Below the pieces are notes generated by a model that made no database searches, was not told the origin of the DNA, and saw nothing but the letters and a program-made list of their open reading frames with translations. 64,000 nucleotides of DNA from Omnitrophica WOR_2 bacterium GWF2_43_52 (GTDB lineage: Bacteria > Omnitrophota > Gorgyraeia > Gygaellales > UBA12090), in NCBI GenBank assembly GCA_001805445.1, contig MHGF01000036.1:7526-71525 (forward strand). Reading direction: 5' to 3'. Made by a program: the position numbers and the translations under genes. Position 1 is the first letter of the stretch. Each line of letters begins with the position of its first letter. Of this stretch, positions 9,888-25,157 are shown one piece after another.

Positions 9888-10110
9888 TTAGAATAGCGTA
9901 GGTACAGGAAAGATGATGAGGGGGCGTGCCCCGTACAAAACCTGTAATTTACAGAGCAAAGTTTTGTTCGGGGCGTGCCCCGAACAAATTTTCTGTATAG
10001 GATGTTGATATAAATTAAATTTTATAAAATAGATACCTGGGTATAGTAATTGACTATGGGGGGGCGTGCCCCGTACAAAATTGCTATACTTAGATATAAC
10101 AATTTTGTAC
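9868..10110. repeat. Array of GGGGCGTGCCCCG palindromes, each followed by (T/A)ACAAAA(CCTGTAATT), between the GIY-YIG gene and tRNA-Pro
   Basis: Units at about 9921, 9969 and 10059. The 9-mer CGGGGCGTG is identical to the tRNA-Pro 5' end at 10110. TTTGTTCGGGGCGTGCCCCGAACAAA is itself a long palindrome. Spacing is irregular. Confidence 0.75.
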
Positions 10111-10184
10111 GGGGCGTGGCTCAGTTTGGCTAGAGCGCTTGAATGGGGTTCAAGAGGTCGACGGTTCAAGTCCGTCCGCCCCGA
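10110..10184 (+). tRNA. tRNA-Pro (anticodon GGG)
   Basis: Acceptor CGGGGCG/CGCCCCG, D-stem GCTC/GAGC, anticodon stem CTTGA/TCAAG with loop ATGGGGT (anticodon GGG), T-arm ACGG-TTCAAGT-CCGT, discriminator A. Confidence 0.75.
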
Positions 10185-10249
10185 CTACACTCTTTTAACG
10201 TTTACCCTATTACACCGTTAAATTAATTATTATTGGTTAACGGTGTAAT

Positions 10250-10375
10250 AAAGGGGGTGTGGGGGAGACCGTCACCCACGATTGGGGAGTGCTCAGCGAT
10301 CCGCCGTAGGCGGAGAGCGCCGAAGGGGGGCTTGCTCCCCTAGCGGAAGTGCGGAGGCAAATTCCGCTTACCCAT
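10250..10375. repeat. Copy 1 of a ~100-nt GC-rich conserved element (AAGGGGTGTGGGGGAGACCGTC.CCCACG.TTGGGG.GTGCTCAGCGATCCGCCGTAGGCGGAGAGCGCCGAAGGGGGGCTTGC.CCCCTAGCGGAAGTGCG)
   Basis: Near-identical second copy at 15402-15530. Contains nested hairpins (CCGCC-GTAG-GCGG; GGGGGG-CTTGC-CCCC). GC-rich island in AT-rich DNA, upstream of the GroES-like gene. Preceded by the inverted repeat TTACACCGTTAA...TTAACGGTGTAA. Confidence 0.75.
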
Positions 10376-11280: not shown

Positions 11281-12576
11281 ATGATGGACAAAATTAATAT
11301 CGGGGTGATCGGCTTTGGTACCGTCGGAAGCGGAGTTATCCGCGCCTTACTGGCAAAACCACACTTTTTTGAGAAGAAAACAGGCGCACGGCTGGTAGTA
11401 AAAACTATTTGCGACAAAGATATCCGAACCAAGCGTGAGGTGAGTGTCGAAAAGAGTATCCTGACGACTGATGTCAACAGTATTCTACATGACGCTGACG
11501 TGTCTATTGTTGTTGAGCTTATCGGGGGGATACATCCGGCGAAAGAATTTATTTTAGAAGCATTGAGGCGCGGAAAGCATGTGGTTACCGCCAATAAAGC
11601 GCTCTTGGCAGAATGCGGGGAAGAAATTTTTCAGGCGGCGAAAAAAGCAAATGTGGATTTATATTTTGAGGCATCGGTGGGCGGAGGTATCCCAATTATT
11701 AAGGCGCTCAGGGAATCATTAGGAGGGAATCATATTGATACCCTCTTGGGGATTGTGAATGGAACATCGAATTATATCTTGACGTCTATGGATGAAGAGG
11801 GTTTGAGTTTTAATCAGGCGCTCATAGAAGCAAAAAAGAAAGGCTACGCGGAGAAGAATCCTGCCTTGGATATTAAGGGCATTGATTCGGCGCACAAACT
11901 GGCCATCTTGTCTTTACTGAGCTTTGGTAAAAGCATTGCCAGCAACGCGATCTATGTCGAAGGCATAGAAGATATTTCTTTGAGCGATATTCGTTATGCC
12001 CAGGATTTTGGCTATGTGATAAAACTTTTGGCAATCGCGAAAAATATCAACGGCCAGTTAGAGGCACGGGTTCATCCCACGCTTTTATCCAAGGAACATC
12101 TGCTTTCTAATGTCAAGGGTGTCTATAACGCGATTTATGTGCACGGGGATTTGGCGGGAGGCACATTGTTTTATGGCCGCGGCGCAGGCAGTAAGCCCGC
12201 GGCAAGTTCAGTCTTAGGTGATATTATAGATGTGGCGCGAAACATAAAACATAATTCCGTAAACCGGGTGCCTATCTATGTAGAAGATAAGACGATTAAG
12301 AAAGTCCGGGATATAGATGATATAGAAACCAGGTATTATCTGAGGCTCTCGGTTATCGATAAGCCCGGCGGGTTAGGAAAAATTGCCGCGATTTTAGGCC
12401 GGCACGGCATTTCTATTGCCTCAGTAGCGCAAAAAGAAAGAAAACAAGCAAAGATTGTCCCTGTTGTTATGATGACTCATGACGCAAAGGAAAGAAATAT
12501 GCGTTTGGCGTTAGAGGAAATCAGCAGGCTTGGCGGGATTAAGAAAAAAACTATAGCTATACGGGTTGAACGGTAA
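11281..12576 (+). CDS. hom: Homoserine dehydrogenase
   Basis: N-terminal NAD-binding INIGVIGFGTVGSGV, catalytic domain, C-terminal ACT domain; 431 aa. Confidence 0.9.
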   Translation: MMDKINIGVIGFGTVGSGVIRALLAKPHFFEKKTGARLVVKTICDKDIRTKREVSVEKSILTTDVNSILHDADVSIVVELIGGIHPAKEFILEALRRGKHVVTANKALLAECGEEIFQAAKKANVDLYFEASVGGGIPIIKALRESLGGNHIDTLLGIVNGTSNYILTSMDEEGLSFNQALIEAKKKGYAEKNPALDIKGIDSAHKLAILSLLSFGKSIASNAIYVEGIEDISLSDIRYAQDFGYVIKLLAIAKNINGQLEARVHPTLLSKEHLLSNVKGVYNAIYVHGDLAGGTLFYGRGAGSKPAASSVLGDIIDVARNIKHNSVNRVPIYVEDKTIKKVRDIDDIETRYYLRLSVIDKPGGLGKIAAILGRHGISIASVAQKERKQAKIVPVVMMTHDAKERNMRLALEEISRLGGIKKKTIAIRVER

Positions 12577-13652
12577 TGGGCTATCGAGGCTTAATCGAGA
12601 CATTTAGGAGATTCCTGCCTGTTACTGAAAAAACGCCCGTGGTTAGCCTCTTGGAAGGCAATACGCCCTTAATGCCTTCAGGCTATCTAAACAGCATTGT
12701 GGGAACTGGCTTTGAGGTGTATTTTAAGTTTGAAGGGTTAAATCCTACCGGCTCATTTAAGGACCGAGGGATGACCCTGGCGGTTTCCAAAGCCAAAGAA
12801 GCAGGCGCGAAGATTATTATGTGCGCCTCAACAGGAAATACCTCTGCTTCAGCTGCTGCCTATGCCGCTAAAGCCGGGCTTGGCTGTGTGGTGTTGATTC
12901 CTGAGGGAGCTATTGCCTTGGGTAAGCTTGCCCAGGCGCTTATTCATGGAGCGAAGGTTTTGGCGCTCCAAGGAAATTTTGACGAAGCCTTAAGCATTGT
13001 TAAAGAAATTACTGCCCGGTATCCCATTGTCTTGGTCAATTCTTTAAATCCTCATCGTTTAGAAGGGCAAAAGACCGCTGCCTTTGAGATTTGTGATACG
13101 TTAGAAGGCGCGCCTGATTACCAATGTATTCCTGTCGGTAACGCGGGAAATATCACTGCCTACTGGAAAGGTTACCAGGAATACAAAAAACAAGGCTTGG
13201 TTTCGTCACTGCCGAAATTATTAGGATTCCAGGCCGCGGGAGCCGCTCCTATCGTTAATGGCCGTCCCATAAAAAAGCCAAAAACCATTGCTACGGCAAT
13301 CAGAATCGGTAATCCTGCAAGCTGGAAGCAGGCAGAGGCTGCCCGCGATGAATCCGGAGGGTTGATTGATTCTGTAACGGACAAAGAGATTGTTGATGCG
13401 TATAAACTTTTAGCATCAAAAGAGGGTATTTTTGTTGAGCCCGCGTCAGCCGCGTCAGTTGCCGGTTTACTGAAGTTGGCAAGAAAAGGATATTTTCACC
13501 GCACATCACAAATCACAAATCGCAAATTGAAAATTGTTTGTATTTTGACCGGCCACGGCCTGAAAGACCCTGACCGGGCAATTAAAATAGTCCATAAGCC
13601 AAAGATTATAAAGGCAGATTTAAAGGCTGTGTTACGGGAGATTGGGTATTAG
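12576..13652 (+). CDS. thrC: Threonine synthase
   Basis: PLP-lysine motif FEGLNPTGSFKDRGM; 358 aa. Carries a short tandem-repeat-derived insertion near the C-terminus (13505-13528). Confidence 0.9.
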   Translation: MGYRGLIETFRRFLPVTEKTPVVSLLEGNTPLMPSGYLNSIVGTGFEVYFKFEGLNPTGSFKDRGMTLAVSKAKEAGAKIIMCASTGNTSASAAAYAAKAGLGCVVLIPEGAIALGKLAQALIHGAKVLALQGNFDEALSIVKEITARYPIVLVNSLNPHRLEGQKTAAFEICDTLEGAPDYQCIPVGNAGNITAYWKGYQEYKKQGLVSSLPKLLGFQAAGAAPIVNGRPIKKPKTIATAIRIGNPASWKQAEAARDESGGLIDSVTDKEIVDAYKLLASKEGIFVEPASAASVAGLLKLARKGYFHRTSQITNRKLKIVCILTGHGLKDPDRAIKIVHKPKIIKADLKAVLREIGY

Positions 13653-13726
13653 CAGCTGTCAGCTTTCGGCTGTCAGCTATCAGCTTTGAGCTGAAAGCCG
13701 GATGCTGATAGCTGAAGGCTGAAAAA

Positions 13727-14368
13727 ATGAATTTAAGAAATAAGCGAATTTTGATTACTGCCGGGCCTACGTGGGTTGCTATAGACAGCATGCGGATAAT
13801 TTCTAATAGCGCAACCGGTACGACCGGCATTTTGTTAGCCCGTGATTTAGCCCGTAAGGGTGCTAAAGTAACGCTTGTTTTGGGCCCTGTCTGCGGTGGC
13901 AGCGGGTATCAGTTGCCTAACATTAGGATAGTGAGGTTTAGTTTTTTTCATGAATTAAAACATGCCCTTATCCAAGAGTTACGTTGGCAAGCCTATGATG
14001 TGGTTATCCATTCTGCCGCGGTTTCAGATTTCGCGCCAGCCCACCATATCAGGGGAAAATTAAAATCCGATAGGCCGCATACTTTAAGGCTTAAGGTGCT
14101 GCCAAAACTTATTGCTACGATACAAAGGGTTTCTCCTCAATCGGCCTTGGTAATATTTAAATTGGAATCGGGGATATCTGACCTTGAACTCATACGGCGC
14201 GCGAGAAGGGCACTCTCAGATCAAGGCGCGGATATCATTGTGGCAAATAAAATAAAGCCAAAGTATCGGGCTTACCTGCTTGATAAAGAAAAAATATACG
14301 CGAAGGTTGATGCTAAAGAAACGTTAGTCAAGTCTCTTATTACTCTCATAGGTGATATATGGAATTAA
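13727..14368 (+). CDS. coaB: Phosphopantothenate--cysteine ligase domain protein (stand-alone CoaB)
   Basis: RILITAGPTWVAIDSMRIISNSATGTTG matches the CoaB motif ILVTAGPT.E.ID.VR.I.N.SSG; no CoaC flavoprotein domain. Confidence 0.75.
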   Translation: MNLRNKRILITAGPTWVAIDSMRIISNSATGTTGILLARDLARKGAKVTLVLGPVCGGSGYQLPNIRIVRFSFFHELKHALIQELRWQAYDVVIHSAAVSDFAPAHHIRGKLKSDRPHTLRLKVLPKLIATIQRVSPQSALVIFKLESGISDLELIRRARRALSDQGADIIVANKIKPKYRAYLLDKEKIYAKVDAKETLVKSLITLIGDIWN

Positions 14369-15090
14369 CGCAGGTAAACGCGGCTTTTAGGAAAGTGCTC
14401 CAGGATTTTACCGTATTGCTTAGAGTGAAGCTTCCGGAAAATTTAAAGGTAGTCATGCTCTATGGGAGCGCGGTAGGTGGTGATTATTCAAAGAAACATT
14501 CGGATATTAATATTTTGTTGATTGTTGAGCAGCTTGATACAGCGACGCTTAAAAGTATTGGTATTCTTAAACGACGGCGCGGCTTTGGCGCCATTGCGCC
14601 ATTGGTATTATCTAAAAAAGATATGGAAACATCAGTCGATACCTTCCCGATAGAGTTTTTAGATATAAAAGAAAACCATATTCTTATATGGGGAGAAGAT
14701 TATAGTAAAGATTTGGTTATTAATCTTACGCACTTAAGGCATCAGTGCGAAGTGGAACTCAAATCAAAGCTCATTCAGGCGCAGCAGGCCTATAGCGCGG
14801 CATGTACTGATAAACGCGCGCTTGAAAACTTTTTGGTTAAAAATTTACCGGCCTTTATTATTGTTTTTAAGAATATTTTGCGCCTTAAGGGGATTTCGGA
14901 AGACGCGAAGGATAAAATTCTTGAACGGATTGCTCTTGAGTTTGGTTTATCAGCGGCTCTTTTCAGGCAGCTATGGCAGCTACGCCAGGAAACGGTAAAA
15001 AGAGCTGAGGCTGGCGACATCTTTGAGAGGTTCTTGGAAGCTTTGTGGCAGCTTTCCGATAAGGTTGATGCCTTTATGGTAAAGGGATAG
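14359..15090 (+). CDS. Nucleotidyltransferase-domain protein (Pol-beta superfamily)
   Basis: LYGSAVGGDYSKKHSDINILLIV fits the GS....G....SD.D NTase motif; 243 aa. Confidence 0.5.
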   Translation: MELTQVNAAFRKVLQDFTVLLRVKLPENLKVVMLYGSAVGGDYSKKHSDINILLIVEQLDTATLKSIGILKRRRGFGAIAPLVLSKKDMETSVDTFPIEFLDIKENHILIWGEDYSKDLVINLTHLRHQCEVELKSKLIQAQQAYSAACTDKRALENFLVKNLPAFIIVFKNILRLKGISEDAKDKILERIALEFGLSAALFRQLWQLRQETVKRAEAGDIFERFLEALWQLSDKVDAFMVKG

Positions 15091-15573
15091 TTACTAGTGC
15101 GCTGTGACATTAGATTTTGACATTGCGCTATCATGTTTGAATATAGGGCGGAGGTCCTGTCAAGGTTATGTTTTCGCGGGGACGTTCGGCCTGCTCCTGC
15201 GGCAGACCTCACTCGGCGTAAATTTTCGCGCCCGCCACTAAAAGCGAGAGCGGGTCCAAGCCGCGAAAATTTCCGTACGCCCCGCTCAAACACAACCTTG
15301 CCACCCCCGCTGGCAAGTGAAGTGTTGCAGATAGCATGAATTTATGTCACGGAGCACTAGTACACTGTGAAATTAATTTTCAATAATTGACAGTGTAGTA
15401 AAAGGGGTGTGGGGGAGACCGTCCCCCACGCTTGGGGGGGTGCTCAGCGATCCGCCGTAGGCGGAGAGCGCCGAAGGGGGCTTGCCCCCCTAGCGCCTGC
15501 CTGCCTGCCGGCAGGGAAGTGCGCCCTCAAACCACCGTATATTATCAATAATTAAGTTCACAGCGCACTAGTT
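15091..15573. repeat. About 480-bp noncoding segment bounded by 13-bp inverted repeats (CTAGTGCGCTGTG / CACAGCGCACTAG, with a degenerate internal copy at 15346-15361) holding a GC-rich block and copy 2 of the GC-rich element
   Basis: Read directly. Internal inverted repeat GGCGTAAATTTTCGCGC / GCGAAAATTTCCGTACGCC. Strong GC skew relative to flanks. The 68-aa ORF at 15133-15339 is low-complexity (P/R/A-rich) and judged noncoding. Confidence 0.6.
15402..15530. repeat. Copy 2 of the GC-rich conserved element, carrying a nested insertion of the 22-bp CCTGCCTGCCGGCAGG palindrome between CTAGCG and GGAAGTGCG
   Basis: Copy 1 reads CTAGCGGAAGTGCG. Copy 2 reads CTAGCG-CCTGCCTGCCTGCCGGCAG-GGAAGTGCG. 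Confidence 0.75.
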
Positions 15574-16473
15574 ATGCTCAAGCACACAGCGATATGGTTG
15601 TTAGGTGTTATAGGTACTATAGCTTTATCGCCACAGGCCGTTGGCGATACTATCCCCCAGCCGGCAGGGTGGGTAAATGATTTTTCCAATTGCATCAGCG
15701 ATGAGTATAGGCAGAAGATTACTGAATTGATCACTGAAGTAGAGCTTAAGACTTCATCTGAAATAGCTGTAGTCACAGTCGCTTCAATGGCTCCTTATGA
15801 TGAGGCAGGCTACGCGCGATTGCTCTTTGATAGGTGGAAACCGGGTAAGAAAGGCAAAGATAACGGGGTTTTGGTATTATTGGCGATAAAGGAAAGGGCT
15901 TGGCGTATTGAAACCGGTTATGGTATGGAAGAGCTTTTGCCTGATGGGGTATGTGGTGAGATAGGCAGAGACTATATGGTGCCTTCTTTTAAGGAGGGTT
16001 TATACGGCAAGGGGCTTTATTACGGAGTCCTCGCGATAGCAGGGGCCATTGTGAAAAATTCAGGCGGCACTTTGGAGCATGCAGAAAGGCTCCCTCCTAA
16101 GAAAAGCGTTGATGCGCCGTTATTTCTATATTTTTTTGCCTTTATATTTTTTGCCATCTGGAATTTACCCTGGCCGATTTTTATAGGGTTGCCATTTACC
16201 GCATTCTTTGCCCTGTGTTTCTATCAAGTGTCCCCATGGGTGAGCTTATTGATTATTGCAGGATATTGCGTTTCTCTGATTATTAGATACAGGTATTGGT
16301 CAGAGCAATCACCTAAAAGGCGAAGAAGTTTTTTCGGGCCGCAGGATTATGGTGGAAGAGTGACAAGCGGAGGATGGGGAGGTGGATACAGCGGTGGTTT
16401 TGGCGGAGGGGGGAGTTTCGGTGGCTTTGGCGGCGGTGGCGGCGGTGGCGGCGGAGCCGGGGGCAGGTTCTAA
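15574..16473 (+). CDS. TPM-domain (YgcG/TLP18.3-like) membrane-anchored protein with Gly-rich C-terminal tail
   Basis: Signal/TM start, TPM core (KITELITEVELKTSSEIAVVTV...GVLVLLAIKERAWRIETGYG), TM helices, GGWGGGYSGGFGGGG tail. Classic partner of LemA. Confidence 0.75.
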   Translation: MLKHTAIWLLGVIGTIALSPQAVGDTIPQPAGWVNDFSNCISDEYRQKITELITEVELKTSSEIAVVTVASMAPYDEAGYARLLFDRWKPGKKGKDNGVLVLLAIKERAWRIETGYGMEELLPDGVCGEIGRDYMVPSFKEGLYGKGLYYGVLAIAGAIVKNSGGTLEHAERLPPKKSVDAPLFLYFFAFIFFAIWNLPWPIFIGLPFTAFFALCFYQVSPWVSLLIIAGYCVSLIIRYRYWSEQSPKRRRSFFGPQDYGGRVTSGGWGGGYSGGFGGGGSFGGFGGGGGGGGGAGGRF

Positions 16474-16536
16474 ATAGAGCTCAAAGCGTTCTCTAGTACA
16501 CCGTTATATTAATTATTGCCTGCCTGCCACGGGCAG

Positions 16537-16705
16537 GGATATCAGGGTATCAGGGAATTGGGATTTGGGGATCGGGCAATCGAAGGATTAGGGAAAAACC
16601 GATATTTTGTTCCCAATATCCTGATATCCTAATCACCAAATCCTAATCTCCCGATCACCTAATCTCCGCATTTAACATGGTTAATTACATATATTATACG
16701 AGGAG
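16537..16705. repeat. Copy B of the ATCAGG-hexamer palindromic element plus conserved tail CCGCATTTAACATGGTTAATTACATATATTATACG (promoter-like) upstream of lemA
   Basis: GGATATCAGGGTATCAGGGAATTGGGATTTGGGG...CCCAATATCCTGATATCCTAATCACCAAATCCTAATCTCCCGATCACCTAATCTCC. Immediately preceded by the GCCTGCCTGCCACGGGCAGGG palindrome (16518-16538). Confidence 0.8.
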
Positions 16706-16713
16706 GTTTTAAG

Positions 16714-17271
16714 ATGAAGAATTTTTTTATCGGTTTGTTGATTATCGTGGTTATCATAGGAGTGGGTTTTATCGGTATTTATAATACCTTAGTTTCAAAG
16801 AGTGAAAATGTCAAGGCTTCCTGGGCGCAAGTAGAGAATGTGTTGCAGAGAAGAGCGGATTTAATTCCGAATCTGGTAAATACGGTAAAAGGATATGCCG
16901 CCCATGAAAAGACGGTGTTTGAAGAAATAACCAAGGCGCGTTCTGCCTGGGCAAATGCCCCAACACAGGATGATAAAATTAAAGCGGCATCTTCTATGGA
17001 TTCGGCAATTTCCCGGCTTTTGATCGTCGCTGAGAATTATCCTACGTTAAAAGCAGACGGCACCTTTTTAAGGCTTCAGGATGAATTAGCAGGCACAGAA
17101 AACAGGATTTCTGTGGAGAGAATGCGTTATAATGAAGCCGTGCGCGGCTACGCTGTCCTTTTGAAGAGTTTTCCGTCTAATCTGCTTGCGCATTGGTTTG
17201 GGTTTACGCAATTCTCAGAATATTTCAAGGCTGAGGAAAAGGCAAGGGTAGTGCCAGAGGTGAAGTTTTAA
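16714..17271 (+). CDS. lemA: LemA-family protein
   Basis: N-terminal TM followed by YNTLV...E.V...W.QVEN.LQRRADLIPNLV, typical LemA; 185 aa; strong RBS GAGGAGG. Confidence 0.85.
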   Translation: MKNFFIGLLIIVVIIGVGFIGIYNTLVSKSENVKASWAQVENVLQRRADLIPNLVNTVKGYAAHEKTVFEEITKARSAWANAPTQDDKIKAASSMDSAISRLLIVAENYPTLKADGTFLRLQDELAGTENRISVERMRYNEAVRGYAVLLKSFPSNLLAHWFGFTQFSEYFKAEEKARVVPEVKF

Positions 17272-17389
17272 ACAATCCCTCGCGTAGACGCTTGAAAATT
17301 TCTTTCGAAATTTTCTTCGCACGCTTCGGGATAAATTCGGCCGGATACCTTACGTTCGCTGCCTTACTTCGTAAGGCGCTCCGTAAGGT

Positions 17390-18595
17390 ATGGCCTCATT
17401 TATGAAATACATTATCTTAGTCGGTGACGGGATGTGTGATTATCCTCTCGCGGAGCTGGGCAATAAAACGCCGCTTGAATATGCCAAAACTCCGCATATG
17501 GATTTTCTGGCTAAAAATGGCAAGATTGGCCTGGCTAAAACTATTCCCGAAGGGATGTCCGCGGCTTCTGATGTTGCTAATTTGGGCATCTTTGGCTATG
17601 ACCCCAAGGTTTACTATTGCGGCAGAGGGCCGCTTGAGGCAGCGAACTTGGGGATAGCGCTAAAGCCTGATGAGGTAGCTTTTCGCTGTAATTTGATTAC
17701 CGCATCTGATGATGTCTTGATTGACTATAGCGCCGGCCATATCTCAACCAAAGAGGCGGGCGTGTTGATAAAGTTTTTAGACCAGAAACTTGGCTCATCA
17801 GAGGTGCGGTTTTATCCCGGGGTAAGTTACCGGCATTTGGCAATTATAAAGAATAAAGCCTTGCAAGCGCGCTGCGTGCCTCCCCACGATATTACCGGAA
17901 GGGAATTTAAAAAATACCTGCCGCATGGCGAGGATGCCCAGTTTCTGATTCTTTTAATGCAGGAAGCGCGTAAGCTTTTGCTTGAACATGAAATAAACCA
18001 GGTGCGCCTTGACTTAAAAGAAAACCCCGCGAATATGATGTGGCTCTGGGGGCAAGGGAAAAAGCCGGCAATTGTTCCTTTTAAGGATAAATATGGGATT
18101 AGAGGTTCAGTAATCTCAGCGGTTGATTTGATTAATGGCATTGGCAGGCTTGCCGGTTTAGAGGTGATTAAGGTTGAAGGCGCTACAGGCTATTATGATA
18201 CCAATTATAAAGGTAAGGCAGAGGCAGCGCTTGCCTCGTTAAAAAATAAGGATTTTGTCTACGTGCATGTTGAGGCCGCGGATGAGGCATCCCACAACGG
18301 CCACCTTCAGGAAAAGCTTTTAGCAATTGAAAGGTTTGACCAGTCTGTGGTGGGAACCATTATGGAAGGTTTGAAAGGCAGAGAGGATTTTCGGATCCTG
18401 CTGATGCCTGACCATGCCACCCCGTTATCGCTGCGCACGCATACCGCAGATAGCGTATGTTTTGCGGTGTACGGAAAAGGAATTAGCGCATCCGGCGCGG
18501 AAGGTTTTAATGAGATAGAAGCAAAAAAGAGTGGTATAGCCTTAGATAAGGCCTTTGTGCTTATGGATAGGTTGATTAAGGAAGAAGAGATATAA
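17390..18595 (+). CDS. ApgM-type cofactor-independent phosphoglycerate mutase homolog (family also proposed as a non-orthologous homoserine kinase)
   Basis: MKYIILVGDGMCDYPL...KTPLEYAKTPHMD matches archaeal-type iPGM/ApgM; 401 aa. Embedded between hom-thrC and lysC. Confidence 0.75.
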   Translation: MASFMKYIILVGDGMCDYPLAELGNKTPLEYAKTPHMDFLAKNGKIGLAKTIPEGMSAASDVANLGIFGYDPKVYYCGRGPLEAANLGIALKPDEVAFRCNLITASDDVLIDYSAGHISTKEAGVLIKFLDQKLGSSEVRFYPGVSYRHLAIIKNKALQARCVPPHDITGREFKKYLPHGEDAQFLILLMQEARKLLLEHEINQVRLDLKENPANMMWLWGQGKKPAIVPFKDKYGIRGSVISAVDLINGIGRLAGLEVIKVEGATGYYDTNYKGKAEAALASLKNKDFVYVHVEAADEASHNGHLQEKLLAIERFDQSVVGTIMEGLKGREDFRILLMPDHATPLSLRTHTADSVCFAVYGKGISASGAEGFNEIEAKKSGIALDKAFVLMDRLIKEEEI

Positions 18596-18640
18596 GAGTA
18601 CAAAGTAAGCCGATAGATAGTGAAAAGTTGCTTTAAAAGT

Positions 18641-18775
18641 GGATATCAGGGTATCGGGAAATTAGGAAAAAAACTATTCTTTATTCCTACTATCCCGATA
18701 TCCTGATTACCAAATCCTAATCTTCCCGGCCACCTGATTTCCGTATTTAACATGGTTATTTACCTATAGTATGTG
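18641..18775. repeat. Copy C of the ATCAGG-hexamer palindromic element with conserved tail CCGTATTTAACATGGTTATTTACCTATAGTATG upstream of lysC
   Basis: GGATATCAGGGTATCGGGAAATTAGG...CCTACTATCCCGATATCCTGATTACCAAATCCTAATCTTCCCGGCCACCTGATTTCC. Confidence 0.8.
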
Positions 18776-18798
18776 AAGAGAAAGGCAAAAGTAGAGAA

Positions 18799-20019
18799 AT
18801 GAAAAAATTGATTGTGCAAAAATACGGTGGTTCTTCAGTAGCAAATCCGGAAAAGATAAAGAATGTTGCCAAGCGCGTTGTGCGTTACAAAAAAAAAGGC
18901 AATGATTTGGTGGTGGTGGTTTCAGCCTTAGGAGATACCACAGATGAATTGATAGAGCTTGCCTCGCAAATATCGGCGGAGCCTCCGGAGCGGGAGATGG
19001 ATATGCTGCTTTCAACCGGTGAGCAGATATCGGTAGCTCTTTTGGCAATGGCAATTCATGAGTTAGGGTATGAGGCGATATCCTTAACGGGTTCACAGGT
19101 AGGCATTATTACCGATACCGTTCATACAAGAGCGAGAATTGTAAAGATAGAGGCTAATAAAATTCATCAAGAGTTGAAAAAGGGTAAAGTAGTAATCGTG
19201 GCGGGCTTTCAGGGAATGACCCCGGATAAGGATATTACAACCTTAGGCAGAGGCGGCTCTGATTTGACCGCGGTTGCCCTTGCCAAGACGTTAGAGGCTA
19301 ATGAGTGCGAGATTTATACCGATGTGGAGGGGATTTTCACCACCGACCCCCGCATTGAGCCTAAGGCAAGAAAGATAGATGAGATAACCTACGATGAGAT
19401 GCTTGAGATGGCTTCTCTTGGGGCGCAGGTAATGCAGGCGCGCTCTATTGAAGTGGCCAAGAAATTTGATGTGCCGATACAGGTGCGTTCGTCATTTTCC
19501 GAGAACTGCGGTACCATGATTATTAAGGAGGTAAAAAATATGGAAGATGTGGCAGTGACGGGGATAACCCTCAATAAAAGTGAATCTAAGATTACCATTT
19601 GTAATGTTCCCGATAAGCCGGGGATCGCCGCTAAGATTTTTAATCAGCTTGCTCAAGGCGGGATTAACGTGGATATGATTGTGCAGAATGTATCGCATAC
19701 GCGCCAAACCGATATATCTTTTACCGTCCCGAAAGTGGATTCTCAAAAAGCGATAAAATTAACCCAGAGGGCGGCACAGGAAATAGGGGAATTAGAGGTT
19801 TTAGAGGATTTGGATATCGCGCGTGTTTCCATTGTGGGAGTAGGGATGAAGACTCATTCCGGGGTTGCGGCAGGGATGTTTGAGACACTCGCTAAGGAGA
19901 AGATAAATATCGAGATGATCTCAACCTCTGAAATCAGCATTTCCTGTATTATCAAGAAAAAATTCGCGGAGACAGCGGTAAAATCTTTGCATGAAAAGTT
20001 TGACTTAGCTAAGAGGTGA
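18799..20019 (+). CDS. lysC: Aspartate kinase (monofunctional, two ACT domains)
   Basis: KYGGSSVANPEKIKNVAKRV, conserved kinase core, tandem ACT domains at the C-terminus; 406 aa. Confidence 0.9.
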   Translation: MKKLIVQKYGGSSVANPEKIKNVAKRVVRYKKKGNDLVVVVSALGDTTDELIELASQISAEPPEREMDMLLSTGEQISVALLAMAIHELGYEAISLTGSQVGIITDTVHTRARIVKIEANKIHQELKKGKVVIVAGFQGMTPDKDITTLGRGGSDLTAVALAKTLEANECEIYTDVEGIFTTDPRIEPKARKIDEITYDEMLEMASLGAQVMQARSIEVAKKFDVPIQVRSSFSENCGTMIIKEVKNMEDVAVTGITLNKSESKITICNVPDKPGIAAKIFNQLAQGGINVDMIVQNVSHTRQTDISFTVPKVDSQKAIKLTQRAAQEIGELEVLEDLDIARVSIVGVGMKTHSGVAAGMFETLAKEKINIEMISTSEISISCIIKKKFAETAVKSLHEKFDLAKR

Positions 20020-21590
20020 GGAGAATGCTCAAAGTTGAATTATACGATACCACCTTGCGTGACGGCGCGCAGACCGAAGGGATTTCCTATTCGGTCCAGG
20101 ATAAGGTGCGCATTGCCCGTAAGCTTGATGAGATGGGGATTCATTTTATTGAAGCCGGCTGGCCGGCGAATCCCAAGGATCGGGAAGTCTTTAGGATATT
20201 GAAGGCCAAGCCTCTTAAGCAGGCCGCGTTAGTTGCTTTTGGTTCTACCCGCAGGATAGATAAAAAGGCAAGCCTTGACGCAAGCATAAAGAGTATCCTC
20301 GCGGCCGAGACTAGGGTTGTGACTATTTTTGGCAAAACCTGGGATCTCCATATTCAAGAGGTGTTGAAGATTTCCTTGGATGAAAACCTTGCGATAATTC
20401 ATGATACGGTTAAATATTTGGTCTCTCAAGGGAAAATGGTTATCTATGATTGCGAGCATTTCTTTGACGGCTATAAGAGTAACCCGGAGTACGCGCTTAA
20501 GACTGCCTTAATTGCCCAGGAAGCGGGGGCGGGCCGTATTGTCTTTTGCGATACTAACGGAGGGACCGTTACTTCTGAGATGATCAGGATTATCCATCAG
20601 GTTGCGCCTAAACTAAAATCAACCCTTGGCATCCATGCCCATAATGATTTGGGATTGGCTGTGGCCAATTCTATTTTCGCGGTTGAAAATGGGGTTACTC
20701 ACGTGCAAGGGACATTCAATGGTTATGGCGAGCGCTGCGGCAACGCTGACTTAACCACTATCATCGGAATTTTGAAAACCAAACTTACTATCGAGTGCAT
20801 TCCAGATAAGAATCTTAAGGAATTAACGAAGGTTTCCCATTTTGTAAGCGAAGTTTCTAATATGCGCCAGCAGCCGAACCAGCCTTTTGTGGGCAGTTCA
20901 GCTTTTGTGCATAAAGGAGGCGTGCATATTGACGCGATGCTGAAGAACCAAAAAACCTATGAGCATATTGATCCTCTTTGGGTAGGTAATCACCGCAGGT
21001 TACTAGCTTCTGAGCTTTCCGGGAAGATGCCTATTATCTTGAAAGCAAAGGAATTTGATCTTGATTTAGACAAAAAATCGCCCAAGACCCAAAAGATTCT
21101 CAAGCTTTTGCAGGATTTAGAACATAAGGGTTATCAGTTTGAGGCGGCTGATGGCTCATTTGAGATTCTCATTAAGCGCGCGCTAAAGCAGTACAAGAAC
21201 TTTTTTAGCCTGGAAAGTTTCAGGGTGGTGGTAGAGAAAAAGCCTGACGGAAGGATTACGTCTGAGGCGATCATCAAGGTGAAGGTAAAAGGGGTTCAGG
21301 AACATACCGCAGCAGACGGCGACGGCCCGGTGAACGCCTTGGATAACGCCCTGCGCAAAGCGCTTAAGTCTTTTTATCCGACGCTGACTAAAATGCATTT
21401 GTCTGATTTTAAGGTGCGGGTCTTGGATGAGAAAGCGGGGACCGCCTCAGGGGTGCGCGTGCTTATCCAGTCTCAGGATGAAACAGATTCCTGGGGCACA
21501 GTCGGGGTTTCGGAGAATATCATTGAGGCGTCATGGCAGGCTCTCGTGGATAGTGTTGAGTATAAATTGCTTAAGGATAAGGTTAGTTGA
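20016..21590 (+). CDS. cimA: Citramalate synthase / 2-isopropylmalate synthase family (CimA-like)
   Basis: LYDTTLRDGAQTEGISYSVQDKVRIARKLDEMGIHFIEAGWP, HxH metal site (IHAHNDLGLAVAN), LeuA-dimer C-terminal domain; length 524 aa fits CimA. Confidence 0.75.
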   Translation: MRRMLKVELYDTTLRDGAQTEGISYSVQDKVRIARKLDEMGIHFIEAGWPANPKDREVFRILKAKPLKQAALVAFGSTRRIDKKASLDASIKSILAAETRVVTIFGKTWDLHIQEVLKISLDENLAIIHDTVKYLVSQGKMVIYDCEHFFDGYKSNPEYALKTALIAQEAGAGRIVFCDTNGGTVTSEMIRIIHQVAPKLKSTLGIHAHNDLGLAVANSIFAVENGVTHVQGTFNGYGERCGNADLTTIIGILKTKLTIECIPDKNLKELTKVSHFVSEVSNMRQQPNQPFVGSSAFVHKGGVHIDAMLKNQKTYEHIDPLWVGNHRRLLASELSGKMPIILKAKEFDLDLDKKSPKTQKILKLLQDLEHKGYQFEAADGSFEILIKRALKQYKNFFSLESFRVVVEKKPDGRITSEAIIKVKVKGVQEHTAADGDGPVNALDNALRKALKSFYPTLTKMHLSDFKVRVLDEKAGTASGVRVLIQSQDETDSWGTVGVSENIIEASWQALVDSVEYKLLKDKVS

Positions 21591-22057: not shown

Positions 22058-22095
22058 AGAAAAGTATCCTTTTTATAGAAAAGGAGTGCGTGAGC

Positions 22096-23640
22096 ATGGA
22101 AACCAAGTGCGATAAGGAAATTGATGTTTTGGTCAGGGCCAGGTATCCTCTGATTTATTTGGTAAGCTGGGAGGAAACTAGGATTATAGAGCGCTTAAGG
22201 GATATGGCGGAGCGCAGGCAAAAAAAGCTTTTTCTTTGGTCTATTACGCGGGGGATTTTTAAATTAGAGGATGTATCCTCAAAGGTTGACGAGGCGACCA
22301 GGGATCCTATAAACGCCCTTAGCTATATTGAGAAATACCCTGACCCCGCGCTTTTTGTGTTTCTTGACTTTCATTCCTTTTTAAATGACCAAACGATAAT
22401 CCGCAAGGCAAGGGACTTGGTAAGTAATCTGAAAGATACGTATGAAACTTTGATTATTATCTCTCCGGTCTTGACGGTGCCTGTAGAATTAGAGAAGGAA
22501 TTCGTGGTTGTGGATTATGATATGCCCTATTATGAGGAAATGACTGAATTGCTCGATGAGATAATTCAGGTGGTATCTAAAACGCCGGAAGTAACCATAG
22601 ACCTTACTCCCGATACTAAGGAAAGGTTAGCCAAGGCAGCGCTTGGCCTGACGCGTTCTGAAGCGGAGAATGCCTTTGCCCGGGCGATTGTGATTGATAA
22701 GAAGTTAGATGTTAATGATATTGATAAAATCCTCGATGAGAAAAAACAGGCGATTAGAAAGAGTAAGCTGTTAGAATATTATGAACTAAGGGAAGAATTT
22801 TCCAATGTCGGAGGCGTCGATTGTTTAAAAGATTGGCTTTCTAAACGCGGCATTGCCTTTACCCAAAAAGCCCAGGAGTTCGGCCTGCCTCAACCAAAAG
22901 GGATTATGCTCCTAGGCGTGCAGGGATGCGGCAAGAGCTTAACCGCTAAAGCTGTTTCGGGTTTGTGGAAATTGCCTCTTTTACGCCTGGATATTGGCGC
23001 GGTCTTTAGCGGTATCGTCGGCTCATCAGAAGAGAATATGCGCCGGGCAATAAAGCTGGCGGAAGCTTTGGCGCCGATAGTGTTATGGATTGATGAGATA
23101 GAAAAAGGCTTGTCAGGAGTGCAGAGTTCAACATTCTCTGACGCAGGGACCTCCGCGCGCGTCTTTAGCACATTCCTTACCTGGCTCCAGGAAAAGACTG
23201 CTGCTGTGTTTGTCATTGCTACTGCCAACAATATCCAGCAGCTTCCTCCGGAGTTGCTGCGAAAAGGGCGATTTGATGAAATATTCTTTGTGGATTTACC
23301 GACTCAGGATGAAAGAAAAGAGATATTTGGAATACATATAAAAAAGAGAAAACGAGATGCGGCGCGCTTTGACGTAGAGCTTTTGGCCAAGGAAAGCGAG
23401 GGTTTTTCAGGCGCGGAAATAGAACAAGCGGTGATTGCCGCTATGTATGATGCCTTTTTGGAAAAGAAGGATATTGACTCTGAAGGCATTATTCGCAGCA
23501 TAAAACAAAGCGTGCCTTTATCGGTAACGATGAAAGAGAATATTGAAGACCTCCGCGCGTGGGCCAAGTATAGGGCGCGCCCGGCAAGCAGCTCTCGAAA
23601 AGAAGTGTCCTCTAACAAGGAGAGAAAGTTAGAGTTTTAA
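22096..23640 (+). CDS. Ycf46-like AAA+ ATPase
   Basis: N-terminal LVRARYPLIYLVSWEETRIIERL resembles the cyanobacterial/plastid Ycf46 N-domain. Walker A GVQGCGKS, Walker B VLWIDEIEK, arginine finger region. ATG 22096 preferred (SD AAGGAG 9 nt upstream); the GTG at 22090 is too close to the SD. Confidence 0.7.
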   Translation: METKCDKEIDVLVRARYPLIYLVSWEETRIIERLRDMAERRQKKLFLWSITRGIFKLEDVSSKVDEATRDPINALSYIEKYPDPALFVFLDFHSFLNDQTIIRKARDLVSNLKDTYETLIIISPVLTVPVELEKEFVVVDYDMPYYEEMTELLDEIIQVVSKTPEVTIDLTPDTKERLAKAALGLTRSEAENAFARAIVIDKKLDVNDIDKILDEKKQAIRKSKLLEYYELREEFSNVGGVDCLKDWLSKRGIAFTQKAQEFGLPQPKGIMLLGVQGCGKSLTAKAVSGLWKLPLLRLDIGAVFSGIVGSSEENMRRAIKLAEALAPIVLWIDEIEKGLSGVQSSTFSDAGTSARVFSTFLTWLQEKTAAVFVIATANNIQQLPPELLRKGRFDEIFFVDLPTQDERKEIFGIHIKKRKRDAARFDVELLAKESEGFSGAEIEQAVIAAMYDAFLEKKDIDSEGIIRSIKQSVPLSVTMKENIEDLRAWAKYRARPASSSRKEVSSNKERKLEF

Positions 23641-23656
23641 TAGTGAATAAAATGAT

Positions 23657-24376
23657 ATGCTGAGAAAATTCATCAAGCGTTTTGAGAAATTAGAGCACGC
23701 GCCAAAAGATGGTCTGTGCAAAGGATGTATTAAGATTTCAAAACGTTTTGAGCGGCTTGAAATAGGAAACAGGAGAATAGAAGTTGTCATTACAGACACA
23801 ATAGGGCAAACTGAAGTTTATCAGGCGCCAGCCAACGCGAACGTTGATTACTCCGTTGTGTGTCCTTATTGCGGCAAGGAAAACCTCTCCAGCGCTATCC
23901 TCTGTATCTCCTGCCAGAATTCGCTGCAGACGCCTTTAACCGAAAACTATCAGAAAGCTGCCCGGTCAATTAAAAAATGCACCTGTGGGGCAATAAATCA
24001 AGGGGAGAGAAGGAATTGCTGGGTCTGTGGCAGGGATTTTTCCTTGGCAGGGGATAAGAATGTGGCAATTGATTCAGCCAATGAAATAATTCTTAATATT
24101 GATGGCGTAGAGTATAAATCCTCAGATAGAAATTTGCCTTTTGACATAGTGACGCTTATGGAAAGGATACGAAAATACGGCTATAGCAAAGAGTTGATTG
24201 ACGATTGGGTAAAGCGTAAAAAGGCGGAAAATGACTTGAAGCAACAGTCATTGCGCGAACGTATTGAGGAAATAAGATCGCAGCTCTCCGCGCGTCAGGT
24301 TCAGCTCATCATCGGTATTGTGGTTGTGGCACTTTACTATTTTTTTAGGTTTTTTATATTTAATCAATTGAGATAA
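23657..24376 (+). CDS. Multi-zinc-ribbon protein with C-terminal transmembrane helix
   Basis: Cys pairs CKGC, CPYCG...CISCQ, CTCG...CWVCG. C-terminal hydrophobic stretch LIIGIVVVALYYFFRFFIF. Confidence 0.5.
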   Translation: MLRKFIKRFEKLEHAPKDGLCKGCIKISKRFERLEIGNRRIEVVITDTIGQTEVYQAPANANVDYSVVCPYCGKENLSSAILCISCQNSLQTPLTENYQKAARSIKKCTCGAINQGERRNCWVCGRDFSLAGDKNVAIDSANEIILNIDGVEYKSSDRNLPFDIVTLMERIRKYGYSKELIDDWVKRKKAENDLKQQSLRERIEEIRSQLSARQVQLIIGIVVVALYYFFRFFIFNQLR

Positions 24377-24398
24377 TACGTAAAAAGGGAGGACTTGC

Positions 24399-24788
24399 AT
24401 GTCTTCAGAGGCTTGTTTGATTACTATGATTGGCGATTTAATTGCTTTAAAGAGAACCTTGTCCGATTTGCAGGTAGAATATGAAGAGACAAAGACTTTG
24501 ACTACTGCCGATGGATCCTCTCATAAAGTTGAAGTGGTAATTAAGGATCCTAACGGCCGTTTAATCGGCCTTGAGAAAACTAAAAAGGGAGAGTATCAGT
24601 TTGTGGCGGATACAAAAGGCTTAACCAAAGAGCAGTTGAAAAAACAGCAAGTGTTTATCAATAAAATTAAGCAGAAATACGCCTATAGTAAGGTTATTGC
24701 TGAGCTTAAAAAACAAGGCTATATGATTTCCGAGGAAGAGAGGGTTCAGAAAAATACCATTCGGCTGGTAGCGCGAAAATGGTCATAG
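24399..24788 (+). CDS. DUF1257 (Ycf35-like) protein
   Basis: 129 aa; C-terminal KIKQKYAYSKVIAELKKQGYMISEEERVQKNTIRLVARKW matches the remembered Ycf35 pattern (QRYAY...QGF...EE...IRLV.QRW). Confidence 0.55.
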   Translation: MSSEACLITMIGDLIALKRTLSDLQVEYEETKTLTTADGSSHKVEVVIKDPNGRLIGLEKTKKGEYQFVADTKGLTKEQLKKQQVFINKIKQKYAYSKVIAELKKQGYMISEEERVQKNTIRLVARKWS

Positions 24789-24940
24789 CAGCAGAGCTGA
24801 ACATGTTATAGAGGAAGATGATAATTGTTGCGTGTATCGTTAACCTTGCCTACCGGCAGGCAGGCGTGTACCGCTTGCCGTAACGGTAAACGGTTAGCGG
24901 TAAACGGTACACGAAACATAATTTTTAACATAGGAGAGAT

Positions 24941-25147
24941 ATGGCGGGAAAACAAGAGATTGAATTATTTATATCTGATGATGGTGAGCTTAAGGTGCAT
25001 ATTAAGGGCATGAAAGGGCCGGGGTGCCTGAAAGTATTAGAAACTTTGGCAAAGGAAATCGGCAGTGAAAAAGGAAGAACGCTTACCAGTGAGTACTACG
25101 AATCAACGAAAAATACGAATACGACGTCAACGAAGTTAAAAAAGTAG
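24941..25147 (+). CDS. DUF2997-like small protein (usual partner of DUF1257)
   Basis: 68 aa; IELFISDDGELKVHIKGMKGPGCLKVLETLAKEIG...TSEYYE fits the DUF2997 pattern (I..DG.V....G..G..C......L...LG...TSEY). Confidence 0.5.
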   Translation: MAGKQEIELFISDDGELKVHIKGMKGPGCLKVLETLAKEIGSEKGRTLTSEYYESTKNTNTTSTKLKK

Positions 25148-25157
25148 GAAGATTTTT

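What the first reader, a model, noticed from the sequence alone, without database searches (positions are those of the whole stretch)
11281..20019. Aspartate-to-threonine gene cluster with no canonical thrB but an ApgM-type phosphoglycerate-mutase homolog embedded
hom and thrC are adjacent; lysC lies 5 kb downstream. The only enzyme-like gene between them that is unassigned to another pathway is an archaeal-type cofactor-independent PGM homolog. Comparative-genomics work has proposed members of this family as non-orthologous homoserine kinases in genomes lacking thrB. The context here fits that proposal. No GHMP-kinase-like thrB is present in the window.
Basis: partly seen in the sequence, partly recalled or inferred. 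Interest (0 to 1): 0.55.

Follow-up and report, generated by a model that had tools for sequence, protein, structure and literature searches.

The report
Known alternative homoserine kinase (HomK) gene

Summary
On the + strand lie hom (11281-12576), thrC (12576-13652), a CoaB-like gene, a three-gene block (unknown ORF, TPM, LemA), an ApgM-type gene (17390-18595), lysC (18799-20019) and cimA. No GHMP kinase is in the 64-kb window.

The ApgM-type ORF scores 542 bits on TIGR02535, "proposed homoserine kinase" (cut-off 446.3). It fails the true-iPGM equivalog NF003104 (321 vs 489). Solved iPGMs (2zkt, 3idd) give the reverse pattern. The ORF keeps the catalytic Ser60 and all metal ligands. It has Glu295 where iPGMs have Lys, the specificity residue published for HomK (E299 of BT2402).

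Across 80 Omnitrophota genomes, hom-thrC lies upstream in 36/42 loci and lysC downstream in 57/63. Glu295 is present in 80/80.

The family is named in the literature (TIGR02535, ThrB2, HomK). Two members, BT2402 and DET_RS08350, rescue an E. coli thrB mutant. So this is an ordinary member of a known family that NCBI's pipeline names "cofactor-independent phosphoglycerate mutase".

Two things remain open: the phosphate donor, and whether this genome has a thrB or a separate glycolytic PGM elsewhere, which could not be tested here.

The parts
11281..12576 (+). hom, homoserine dehydrogenase with a C-terminal ACT domain. It makes the substrate of HomK.
   Evidence: NF004976, 532 bits (cut-off 205). 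Pfam Homoserine_dh, NAD_binding_3 and ACT.
12576..13652 (+). thrC, threonine synthase. It consumes O-phosphohomoserine.
   Evidence: TIGR00260 equivalog, 328 bits (cut-off 167). Its ATG overlaps the hom stop codon by 1 nt.
13727..14368 (+). CoaB-like gene (DFP C-terminal domain). It lies between thrC and homK in 33 of 57 Omnitrophota loci. Its role in the cluster is unknown.
   Evidence: PF04127, 137 bits. Below every NCBIfam CoaB cut-off. PDB CoaB chains match at E 1e-17 to 1e-11. Counts.
14359..17271 (+). Inserted block, not part of the pathway: a 243-aa unassigned ORF (14359-15090), a repeat-filled gap (15091-15573), a TPM-domain gene (15574-16473) and LemA (16714-17271).
   Evidence: Absent from most relatives, where coaB or thrC abuts homK. 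All or part of the block lies between thrC and homK in 10 of 57 loci. Pfam TPM_phosphatase and LemA.
17390..18595 (+). homK (ThrB2 / TIGR02535), an ApgM-fold homoserine phosphotransferase. Putative residues: catalytic Ser60; metal ligands D13, D298, H302, D341, H342, H351; specificity residue Glu295.
   Evidence: TIGR02535, 542 bits (cut-off 446.3). NF003104, 321 bits (cut-off 489). Control with solved iPGMs. Residue analysis.
18799..20019 (+). lysC, monofunctional aspartate kinase with two ACT domains. First step of the aspartate pathway.
   Evidence: NF005155, 604 bits (cut-off 346). Downstream of homK in 57 of 63 loci.
20016..21590 (+). cimA, citramalate synthase (threonine-independent route to isoleucine). 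It abuts lysC.
   Evidence: TIGR00977, 738 bits (cut-off 450). Downstream in 50 of 55 loci.

Best explanation
The ORF at 17390-18595 is a HomK (also called ThrB2 or TIGR02535). It is a two-metal enzyme with the fold of archaeal-type cofactor-independent phosphoglycerate mutase. It supplies the missing step between homoserine dehydrogenase and threonine synthase by making O-phosphohomoserine.

Inferred mechanism, by analogy with iPGMs and from the published model of BT2402:
1. A phosphoryl donor, probably not ATP, phosphorylates the catalytic Ser60 at the bimetal site (D13, D298, H302, D341, H342, H351).
2. The phospho-serine intermediate passes the phosphate to the gamma-hydroxyl of L-homoserine.
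3. Homoserine's amino group is held by Glu295, which replaces the Lys that iPGMs use for their anionic substrate.

The gene belongs to a phylum-wide Omnitrophota cluster: hom-thrC-(coaB-like)-homK-lysC-cimA. In this lineage the cluster is interrupted by an inserted block of an unknown ORF, TPM and LemA.

Shown here: family membership, active-site conservation, the Glu-for-Lys change and the conserved context.
Inferred: the reaction, the phospho-enzyme mechanism and the donor.
For: (1) Curated models. TIGR02535 'proposed homoserine kinase' scores 542 bits against a cut-off of 446.3. The true-iPGM equivalogs fail: NF003104 scores 321 against 489, and NF003160 scores 186 against 468.

(2) Control. 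The solved iPGMs 2zkt and 3idd score 582 and 540 on NF003104. They reach only 322 and 277 on TIGR02535, and 322 and 284 on NF003242.

(3) Residues.
- Ser60 and the ligands D13, D298, H302, D341, H342 and H351 are identical to those of the solved iPGMs.
- Lys of the iPGMs is Glu295 here. Glu is found in 119/120 close homologs, 80/80 genome loci and 131/150 diverse representatives.
- This is the column of E299 in BT2402, the published specificity residue.
- Other iPGM basic residues are replaced: R/R/R becomes Y113/S114/H117, and R becomes W220 (W in 148/150 representatives).

(4) Context.
- In the window the gene lies between hom-thrC and lysC.
- In relatives at 61-79% identity the order is hom-thrC-coaB-homK-lysC-cimA, and homK overlaps coaB by 4 nt in two of the three.
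- In 80 Omnitrophota genomes, hom+thrC lie upstream in 36/42 loci, lysC downstream in 57/63, and thrC is directly followed by homK in 24/57.

(5) Need. thrC is an O-phosphohomoserine-dependent threonine synthase (TIGR00260 equivalog). No GHMP ThrB or ThrH is in the window or in any of the 80 loci.

(6) Literature.
- BT2402 mutants need threonine (PMC7311316).
- BT2402 and DET_RS08350 rescue E. coli thrB::kan (bioRxiv 10.1101/2024.10.14.618325).
- ThrB2 and ThrB have complementary occurrence: 278 of the 300 gut genomes that have ThrB2 lack thrB (PMC9026213).
Against: - No Omnitrophota member has been tested experimentally.
- The published complementation is weak (OD600 rose by 0.14 in 47 h for BT2402). 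An earlier attempt failed (PMC7311316).
- The window covers only 64 kb of the genome. asd is also missing from it, so absence of thrB from the window is weak evidence.
- Whether the genome has another glycolytic PGM is unknown.
- The protein still passes the broad apgM subfamily model TIGR00306 (514 bits, cut-off 320). NCBI names its relatives 'cofactor-independent phosphoglycerate mutase'.
- Linkage to hom-thrC is not universal. It is missing in 6 of 42 loci, including the closed chromosome CP070797.1 (L088). It is also missing in L005, which encodes a 100% identical protein.
- The phosphate donor is unknown.
Confidence: 0.85

Rival explanations
1. It is a genuine glycolytic or gluconeogenic cofactor-independent phosphoglycerate mutase of the ApgM type, and it merely happens to sit in an amino-acid gene cluster.
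For: - It matches three solved iPGMs at about 35% identity and E of about 1e-60.
- Catalytic Ser and all metal ligands are intact.
- It passes the TIGR00306 apgM subfamily cut-off.
- NCBI and JGI name its relatives as iPGM.
- No other PGM is in the window.
Against: - It fails both true-iPGM equivalog cut-offs by more than 160 bits, while the solved iPGMs pass NF003104.
- The substrate-side Lys is reversed to Glu, and four Arg residues of the solved iPGMs are lost.
- Its position inside hom-thrC...lysC is conserved across a whole phylum.
- Family members rescue thrB mutants.
Confidence: 0.04
2. It is a phosphotransferase of the HomK clade but acts on a different hydroxy-amino acid. One example would be formation of L-threonine O-3-phosphate, as suggested for the cobD-linked homologs. 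Alternatively it has a second physiological role besides homoserine.
For: - Glu295 only predicts a cationic (amino-acid-like) substrate, not homoserine specifically.
- The literature notes Glu-bearing homologs next to cobD.
- The donor and the exact specificity are unmeasured for the whole family.
Against: - No cobD or cobalamin genes are nearby. The neighbours are hom, thrC and lysC in most genomes.
- The cobD-linked homologs score better on TIGR00306 than on TIGR02535. This ORF does the opposite.
Confidence: 0.05
3. The genome also has a canonical GHMP ThrB elsewhere, and this gene is redundant or conditionally used.
For: - Only 64 kb of the genome was visible.
- 22 of 300 ThrB2-bearing gut genomes also have thrB (PMC9026213).
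Against: - Occurrence is complementary in most studied genomes.
- No ThrB-like sequence lies within 10 kb of homK in 80 Omnitrophota genomes.
- A redundant gene would not be expected to keep such strong conservation of sequence and position.
Confidence: 0.06

Closest known systems
HomK / ThrB2 / TIGR02535 (BT2402 of Bacteroides thetaiotaomicron; DET_RS08350 of Dehalococcoides mccartyi)
   Same: - Passes the family's curated HMM cut-off.
- Same catalytic Ser and metal ligands, and the same Glu at the specificity position.
- Same association with hom and thrC.
- About 400 aa with the Metalloenzyme + PhosphMutase architecture.
   Different: - It comes from a different phylum (Candidatus Omnitrophota).
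- The cluster also carries lysC and cimA, and often a CoaB-like gene between thrC and homK.
- In this window it is separated from thrC by 3.7 kb because of the CoaB-like gene and an inserted block.
- This member is untested.
Archaeal-type cofactor-independent phosphoglycerate mutase ApgM (PDB 2zkt, 3idd, 3kd8; SSO0417)
   Same: Homologous over the full length (34-35% identity). Same fold family, same phospho-serine and two-metal catalytic apparatus.
   Different: - Lys is replaced by Glu295.
- 'DRRAGR' becomes 'DYSAGH', and 'IRGAG' becomes 'LWGQG'.
- It fails the NF003104 and NF003160 cut-offs.
- Its genomic context is threonine synthesis, not glycolysis.
Canonical homoserine kinase ThrB (GHMP kinase, EC 2.7.1.39)
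   Same: Same pathway position, and inferred to give the same product, O-phosphohomoserine.
   Different: Unrelated fold. ThrB uses ATP, whereas HomK probably uses another donor through a phospho-enzyme intermediate.
ThrH phosphoserine:homoserine phosphotransferase of Pseudomonas aeruginosa (HAD family)
   Same: A precedent for ATP-independent formation of O-phosphohomoserine by phosphotransfer (as cited).
   Different: Not homologous, and no HAD-family gene is in this cluster.

Membership tests
HomK / ThrB2 / TIGR02535 | Score at or above the curated TIGR02535 cut-off, and above the score on true-iPGM equivalog models | tested here: met
   542 bits against a cut-off of 446.3. NF003104 gives only 321 against 489. 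In the control, the solved iPGMs score 322 and 277 on TIGR02535.
HomK / ThrB2 / TIGR02535 | Glutamate at the specificity position (E299 of BT2402) where iPGMs have lysine | tested here: met
   Glu295 aligns to Lys of 2zkt and 3idd. The column was mapped to BT2402 through the published D12/D9 offset.
HomK / ThrB2 / TIGR02535 | Catalytic serine and metal-coordinating Asp/His residues retained | tested here: met
   S60, D13, D298, H302, D341, H342 and H351 are identical to the solved iPGMs and invariant in 120/120 close homologs.
HomK / ThrB2 / TIGR02535 | [quoted passage not shown] | tested here: met
   In the window. In 36 of 42 Omnitrophota loci with enough upstream sequence, and thrC directly precedes homK in 24 of 57.
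HomK / ThrB2 / TIGR02535 | Genome lacks canonical thrB (complementary occurrence) | not testable with these tools
   None in the 64-kb window or in 80 loci of up to about 21 kb. Whole genomes could not be read.
HomK / ThrB2 / TIGR02535 | Forms O-phosphohomoserine / rescues a thrB mutant | not testable with these tools
   Shown only for BT2402 and DET_RS08350 in the literature.
ApgM-type cofactor-independent phosphoglycerate mutase | Passes an iPGM equivalog model (NF003104 or NF003160) | tested here: not met
   321 against 489, and 186 against 468. It does pass the broad subfamily model TIGR00306 (514 against 320), which covers both clades.
ApgM-type cofactor-independent phosphoglycerate mutase | Lysine at the substrate-side position, plus the basic residues seen in solved iPGMs | tested here: not met
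   Lys becomes Glu295. R/R/R become Y113/S114/H117. R becomes W220. The substrate-binding role of these Arg residues is inferred, not shown.
GHMP-kinase homoserine kinase ThrB | GHMP_kinases_N/C domains | tested here: not met
   No GHMP domain in any window ORF scanned. tblastn with E. coli ThrB found nothing.

The most novel reading that the evidence does not exclude
The CoaB-like ligase gene lies between thrC and homK in 33 of 57 Omnitrophota loci. It overlaps homK by 4 nt in two relatives and scores below every curated CoaB cut-off. On this reading it is not a coenzyme-A enzyme but a functional partner of HomK, for instance making or recycling its still-unknown phosphoryl donor. That would define a two-protein, ATP-independent homoserine phosphorylation module.
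Probability: 0.05. Interest if true: 0.6.

Novelty: already known. Interest (0 to 1): 0.18.

Why it matters
The value is mostly practical.

- The finding confirms that threonine synthesis in Omnitrophota, a large uncultured phylum, need not be called incomplete when thrB is missing.
- It shows that the NCBIfam model NF003242 assigns the name "cofactor-independent phosphoglycerate mutase" to proteins of the HomK clade. Metabolic reconstructions from such annotation will wrongly credit a glycolytic step and wrongly report a threonine gap.

The one real open question is the phosphoryl donor of HomK. It applies to the whole family and is not made more tractable by this locus.

Tried and rejected
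- **Promoter and terminator scans** over 10.7-22.2 kb gave counts at or below the shuffled expectation. They say nothing about operon structure.
- **Rfam** at gathering thresholds found only two tRNAs, and no riboswitch or leader near hom or lysC.
- **The genome scan with a mixed HomK + iPGM alignment** was meant to sample both Glu-type and Lys-type relatives. Only the 80 best hits were kept, and all are Omnitrophota-type HomK. The Glu/Lys versus context contrast could not be reproduced independently. It rests on three PDB iPGMs and the literature.
- **The long (about 1,000-aa) homologs** were checked as possible fusions to threonine-pathway enzymes. Their C-terminal parts have no Pfam domain and are not pathway enzymes.
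- **A literature search** for Omnitrophota threonine synthesis found nothing specific.
- **BT2402's own sequence** could not be obtained, so identity to an experimentally tested member is unknown.
- **Structure prediction** was not run. Sequence matches to solved structures are already unambiguous, and the tool returns no coordinates for measuring distances.
- **The idea that the inserted block (unk243-TPM-LemA) belongs to the pathway** was rejected. Most relatives lack it.
Full report
**What is in the sequence.** Every gene in the region is on the + strand. The assignments are:

| Coordinates | Gene | Evidence |
|---|---|---|
| 11281-12576 | hom, homoserine dehydrogenase with an ACT domain | NF004976, 532 bits |
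| 12576-13652 | thrC, threonine synthase; its ATG overlaps the hom stop by 1 nt | TIGR00260, 328 bits (cut-off 167) |
| 13727-14368 | CoaB-like DFP-domain protein | Pfam 137 bits, but below every NCBIfam CoaB cut-off |
| 14359-15090 | 243-aa ORF | no family match |
| 15574-16473 | TPM-domain protein | PF04536 TPM_phosphatase, 124.6 bits |
| 16714-17271 | LemA | PF04011, 190.3 bits |
| 17390-18595 | ApgM-type ORF | Pfam PhosphMutase + Metalloenzyme |
| 18799-20019 | lysC, aspartate kinase | NF005155, 604 bits |
| 20016-21590 | cimA, citramalate synthase | TIGR00977, 738 bits |

Pfam scans covered the + strand ORFs of at least 150 aa, plus three shorter ones. They found no GHMP kinase, no HAD-type ThrH, no second phosphoglycerate mutase and no asd. 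A six-frame tblastn with E. coli ThrB found nothing (best E = 4.3, and that hit was in a related locus). Because asd is also absent, absence from the window is weak evidence about the genome.

**Origin.** The window is 99.93% identical to a stretch of a 189,839-bp metagenome scaffold (ENA ERZ28564009, scaffold_186). The closest named relatives of the ORF are all MAGs of Candidatus Omnitrophota, annotated "cofactor-independent phosphoglycerate mutase".

**Family assignment.** Scores on the NCBIfam models, with two solved iPGMs run as a control:

| Model (cut-off) | Window ORF | 2zkt (P. horikoshii) | 3idd (T. acidophilum) |
|---|---|---|---|
| TIGR02535 "proposed homoserine kinase" (446.3) | 542 | 322.1 | 277.5 |
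| NF003242 "cofactor-independent phosphoglycerate mutase" (426) | 562 | 321.9 | 284.3 |
| NF003104, true-iPGM equivalog (489) | 320.8 | 582.3 | 540.5 |
| NF003160, true-iPGM equivalog (468) | 186 | 337.3 | 284.6 |
| TIGR00306, broad apgM subfamily (320) | 513.8 | 460.2 | 424.2 |

The two clades separate by more than 200 bits in each direction. NF003242 tracks TIGR02535, so it models the HomK clade under a PGM name.

**Residues.** The ORF aligns over its full length with the solved iPGMs at 34-35% identity (E of about 1e-60).

- The catalytic serine (S60) and the Asp/His metal ligands (D13, D298, H302, D341, H342, H351) are identical to the iPGMs. They are invariant in 120/120 close homologs.
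- In the motif HVEAADEASH, Glu295 replaces the Lys of the iPGMs (HFKPTDAAGH and NIKATDVAGH). Glu is found in 119/120 close homologs, 80/80 genome loci and 131/150 diverse 50%-cluster representatives, against only 2 with Lys.
- Further basic residues of the solved iPGMs are replaced. "DRRAGR" becomes "DYSAGH" (Y113, S114, H117). "IRGAG" becomes "LWGQG" (W220, which is Trp in 148/150 representatives).
- Glu299 (Ala or Val in the iPGMs) is Glu in 139/150 representatives.

The loss of positive charge fits a switch from an anionic substrate to an amino-acid substrate. That reading is an inference.

**Literature.**
- The TIGRFAMs curators proposed TIGR02535 as a replacement for homoserine kinase. 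BT2402 mutants of Bacteroides thetaiotaomicron need threonine, although a first complementation attempt failed (PMC7311316).
- Ashniev et al. named the family ThrB2 and found it in 300 gut genomes, 278 of which lack thrB (PMC9026213).
- The GapMind 2026 preprint (bioRxiv 10.1101/2024.10.14.618325) reports that BT2402 and the diverged DET_RS08350 rescue E. coli thrB::kan. It names the family HomK. It identifies the catalytic Ser56 and the specificity residue E299, which is Glu in HomK and Lys in iPGMs. It argues that the donor is not ATP and probably not phosphoglycerate, and may be phosphoserine.
- The published alignment offset (2zkt D12 = BT2402 D9) places BT2402 E299 at the iPGM Lys column. 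That column is Glu295 here.

**Context across the phylum.**
- In three relatives on long contigs (61-79% identity) the order is PilZ-hom-thrC-coaB-homK-(0 or 1 variable gene)-lysC-cimA-valS-nadC. homK overlaps the CoaB-like gene by 4 nt in two of them.
- A scan of one genome per species returned 80 loci at 53-80% identity. Most are labelled Omnitrophota. Some carry Planctomycetia, Planctomycetales, Dehalococcoidia, Actinomycetes or unclassified "bacterium" labels, or the name Candidatus Tritonobacter lacicola.
- hom and thrC lie upstream on the same strand in 36 of 42 loci with at least 6 kb of upstream sequence. lysC lies downstream in 57 of 63, and cimA in 50 of 55. None has a ThrB-like hit.
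- Among the 57 loci with thrC upstream, thrC is directly followed by homK in 24. The CoaB-like gene lies between them in 33. All or part of the unknown-ORF/TPM/LemA block seen in this window is present in 10.
- Exceptions exist. Six of the 42 loci lack hom-thrC upstream, among them the closed chromosome CP070797.1. L005 encodes a 100% identical protein but has a metallo-beta-lactamase-fold gene and an integrase upstream instead.

**Conclusion.** The ORF is a HomK. The most likely mechanism is phosphotransfer through a phospho-Ser60 intermediate at a two-metal site onto the gamma-hydroxyl of L-homoserine. Glu295 would bind the substrate's amino group, and the product would feed the adjacent threonine synthase.

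- Shown here: membership, active-site integrity, the Glu-for-Lys change and the conserved context.
- Inferred: the reaction itself, the phospho-enzyme mechanism and the donor.
- I put this at 0.85. The rivals are a true iPGM (0.04), another hydroxy-amino-acid substrate (0.05) and redundancy with a thrB elsewhere (0.06).

**Novelty.** The locus is an ordinary member of it.

Two things are modestly new. One is the phylum-wide conserved hom-thrC-(coaB-like)-homK-lysC-cimA arrangement in Omnitrophota. The other is the demonstration that NF003242 gives this clade a PGM name. Interest is low.

Noticed in passing
window 15093-15572, and 10207-10345: The 484-bp gap between the 243-aa ORF and the TPM gene holds two abutting units, 15093-15361 and 15356-15572. 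Each is bounded by the same 15-nt terminal inverted repeat, ACTAGTGCGCTGTGA (5 matches against 0.88 expected). Unit A folds strongly as RNA (z = -5.5). Unit B has a second, partial copy (87% over 140 nt) just after the tRNA at 10110-10184. The units look like miniature inverted-repeat elements. There was no Rfam hit.
   Followed up: partly
L005 3014-3493, compared with window 15093-15572: In a groundwater contig that encodes a 100% identical HomK, the same repeat pair sits exactly where the upstream context switches from hom-thrC-coaB-unk243 to a Lactamase_B gene plus a phage-type integrase. This suggests a recombination or insertion junction.
   Followed up: partly
window 13727-14368: The CoaB-like (DFP C-terminal domain) gene is below all NCBIfam CoaB cut-offs. 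It matches PDB CoaB chains at E 1e-17 to 1e-11. It lies between thrC and homK in 33 of 57 Omnitrophota loci, often within 0-60 nt of homK. It is unclear why a CoA-pathway gene would be fixed inside a threonine cluster.
   Followed up: partly
window 14359-17271: The block of unknown 243-aa ORF, TPM-domain protein and LemA is inserted between coaB and homK in only a subset of Omnitrophota species (all or part of it in 10 of 57 loci). The 243-aa ORF shows only a faint resemblance to nucleotidyltransferases (E 0.2-0.4).
   Followed up: partly
NCBIfam NF003242, against window 17390-18595: NF003242 (PRK04200) is typed 'equivalog' and named 'cofactor-independent phosphoglycerate mutase'. It scores HomK-clade proteins at 562-578 bits and solved true iPGMs at only 284-322 bits, below its own cut-off of 426. 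It therefore appears to be the source of the PGM name carried by HomK proteins in NCBI annotation.
   Followed up: yes
proteins P0128, P0132, P0135, P0138, P0159, P0171, P0213, P0223: Eight representatives of 974-1123 aa carry an N-terminal HomK-like enzyme with Glu at the specificity column. This is followed by an acidic linker, a Lys-rich stretch, one hydrophobic helix and a roughly 450-aa Thr/Ser/Val-rich domain. The C-terminal domain has no Pfam match, but the eight are homologous to one another (E 1e-83 to 1e-8). The organisms are unknown. P0195 is a HomK-like protein fused to a signal peptidase S26 domain.
   Followed up: partly
proteins P0214, P0244, P0253, P0266, P0267: A minority of family representatives lack the metal-ligand His302 (Leu instead), and several also lack Asp298 and Glu295. 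They may be catalytically inactive paralogs.
   Followed up: no
window 42171-62461: A long run of glycosyltransferases is followed by ten radical-SAM genes, several with B12-binding or SPASM domains, plus two large membrane proteins (one matching DUF2079, one weakly GT-C-like). G+C here is about 0.37-0.41, against about 0.44-0.46 in the first 30 kb.
   Followed up: no
window 22090-25150: An AAA ATPase, a 239-aa zinc-ribbon-like protein, DUF1257 and DUF2997 form a small block between cimA and valS. It is conserved in the nearest relatives (L001-L004, L008) but absent in L006 and L007.
   Followed up: no
window 1-64000: Every credible gene in the 64 kb is on the + strand, and GC skew is positive throughout. 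This is consistent with a single replichore with strong gene-strand bias.
   Followed up: no
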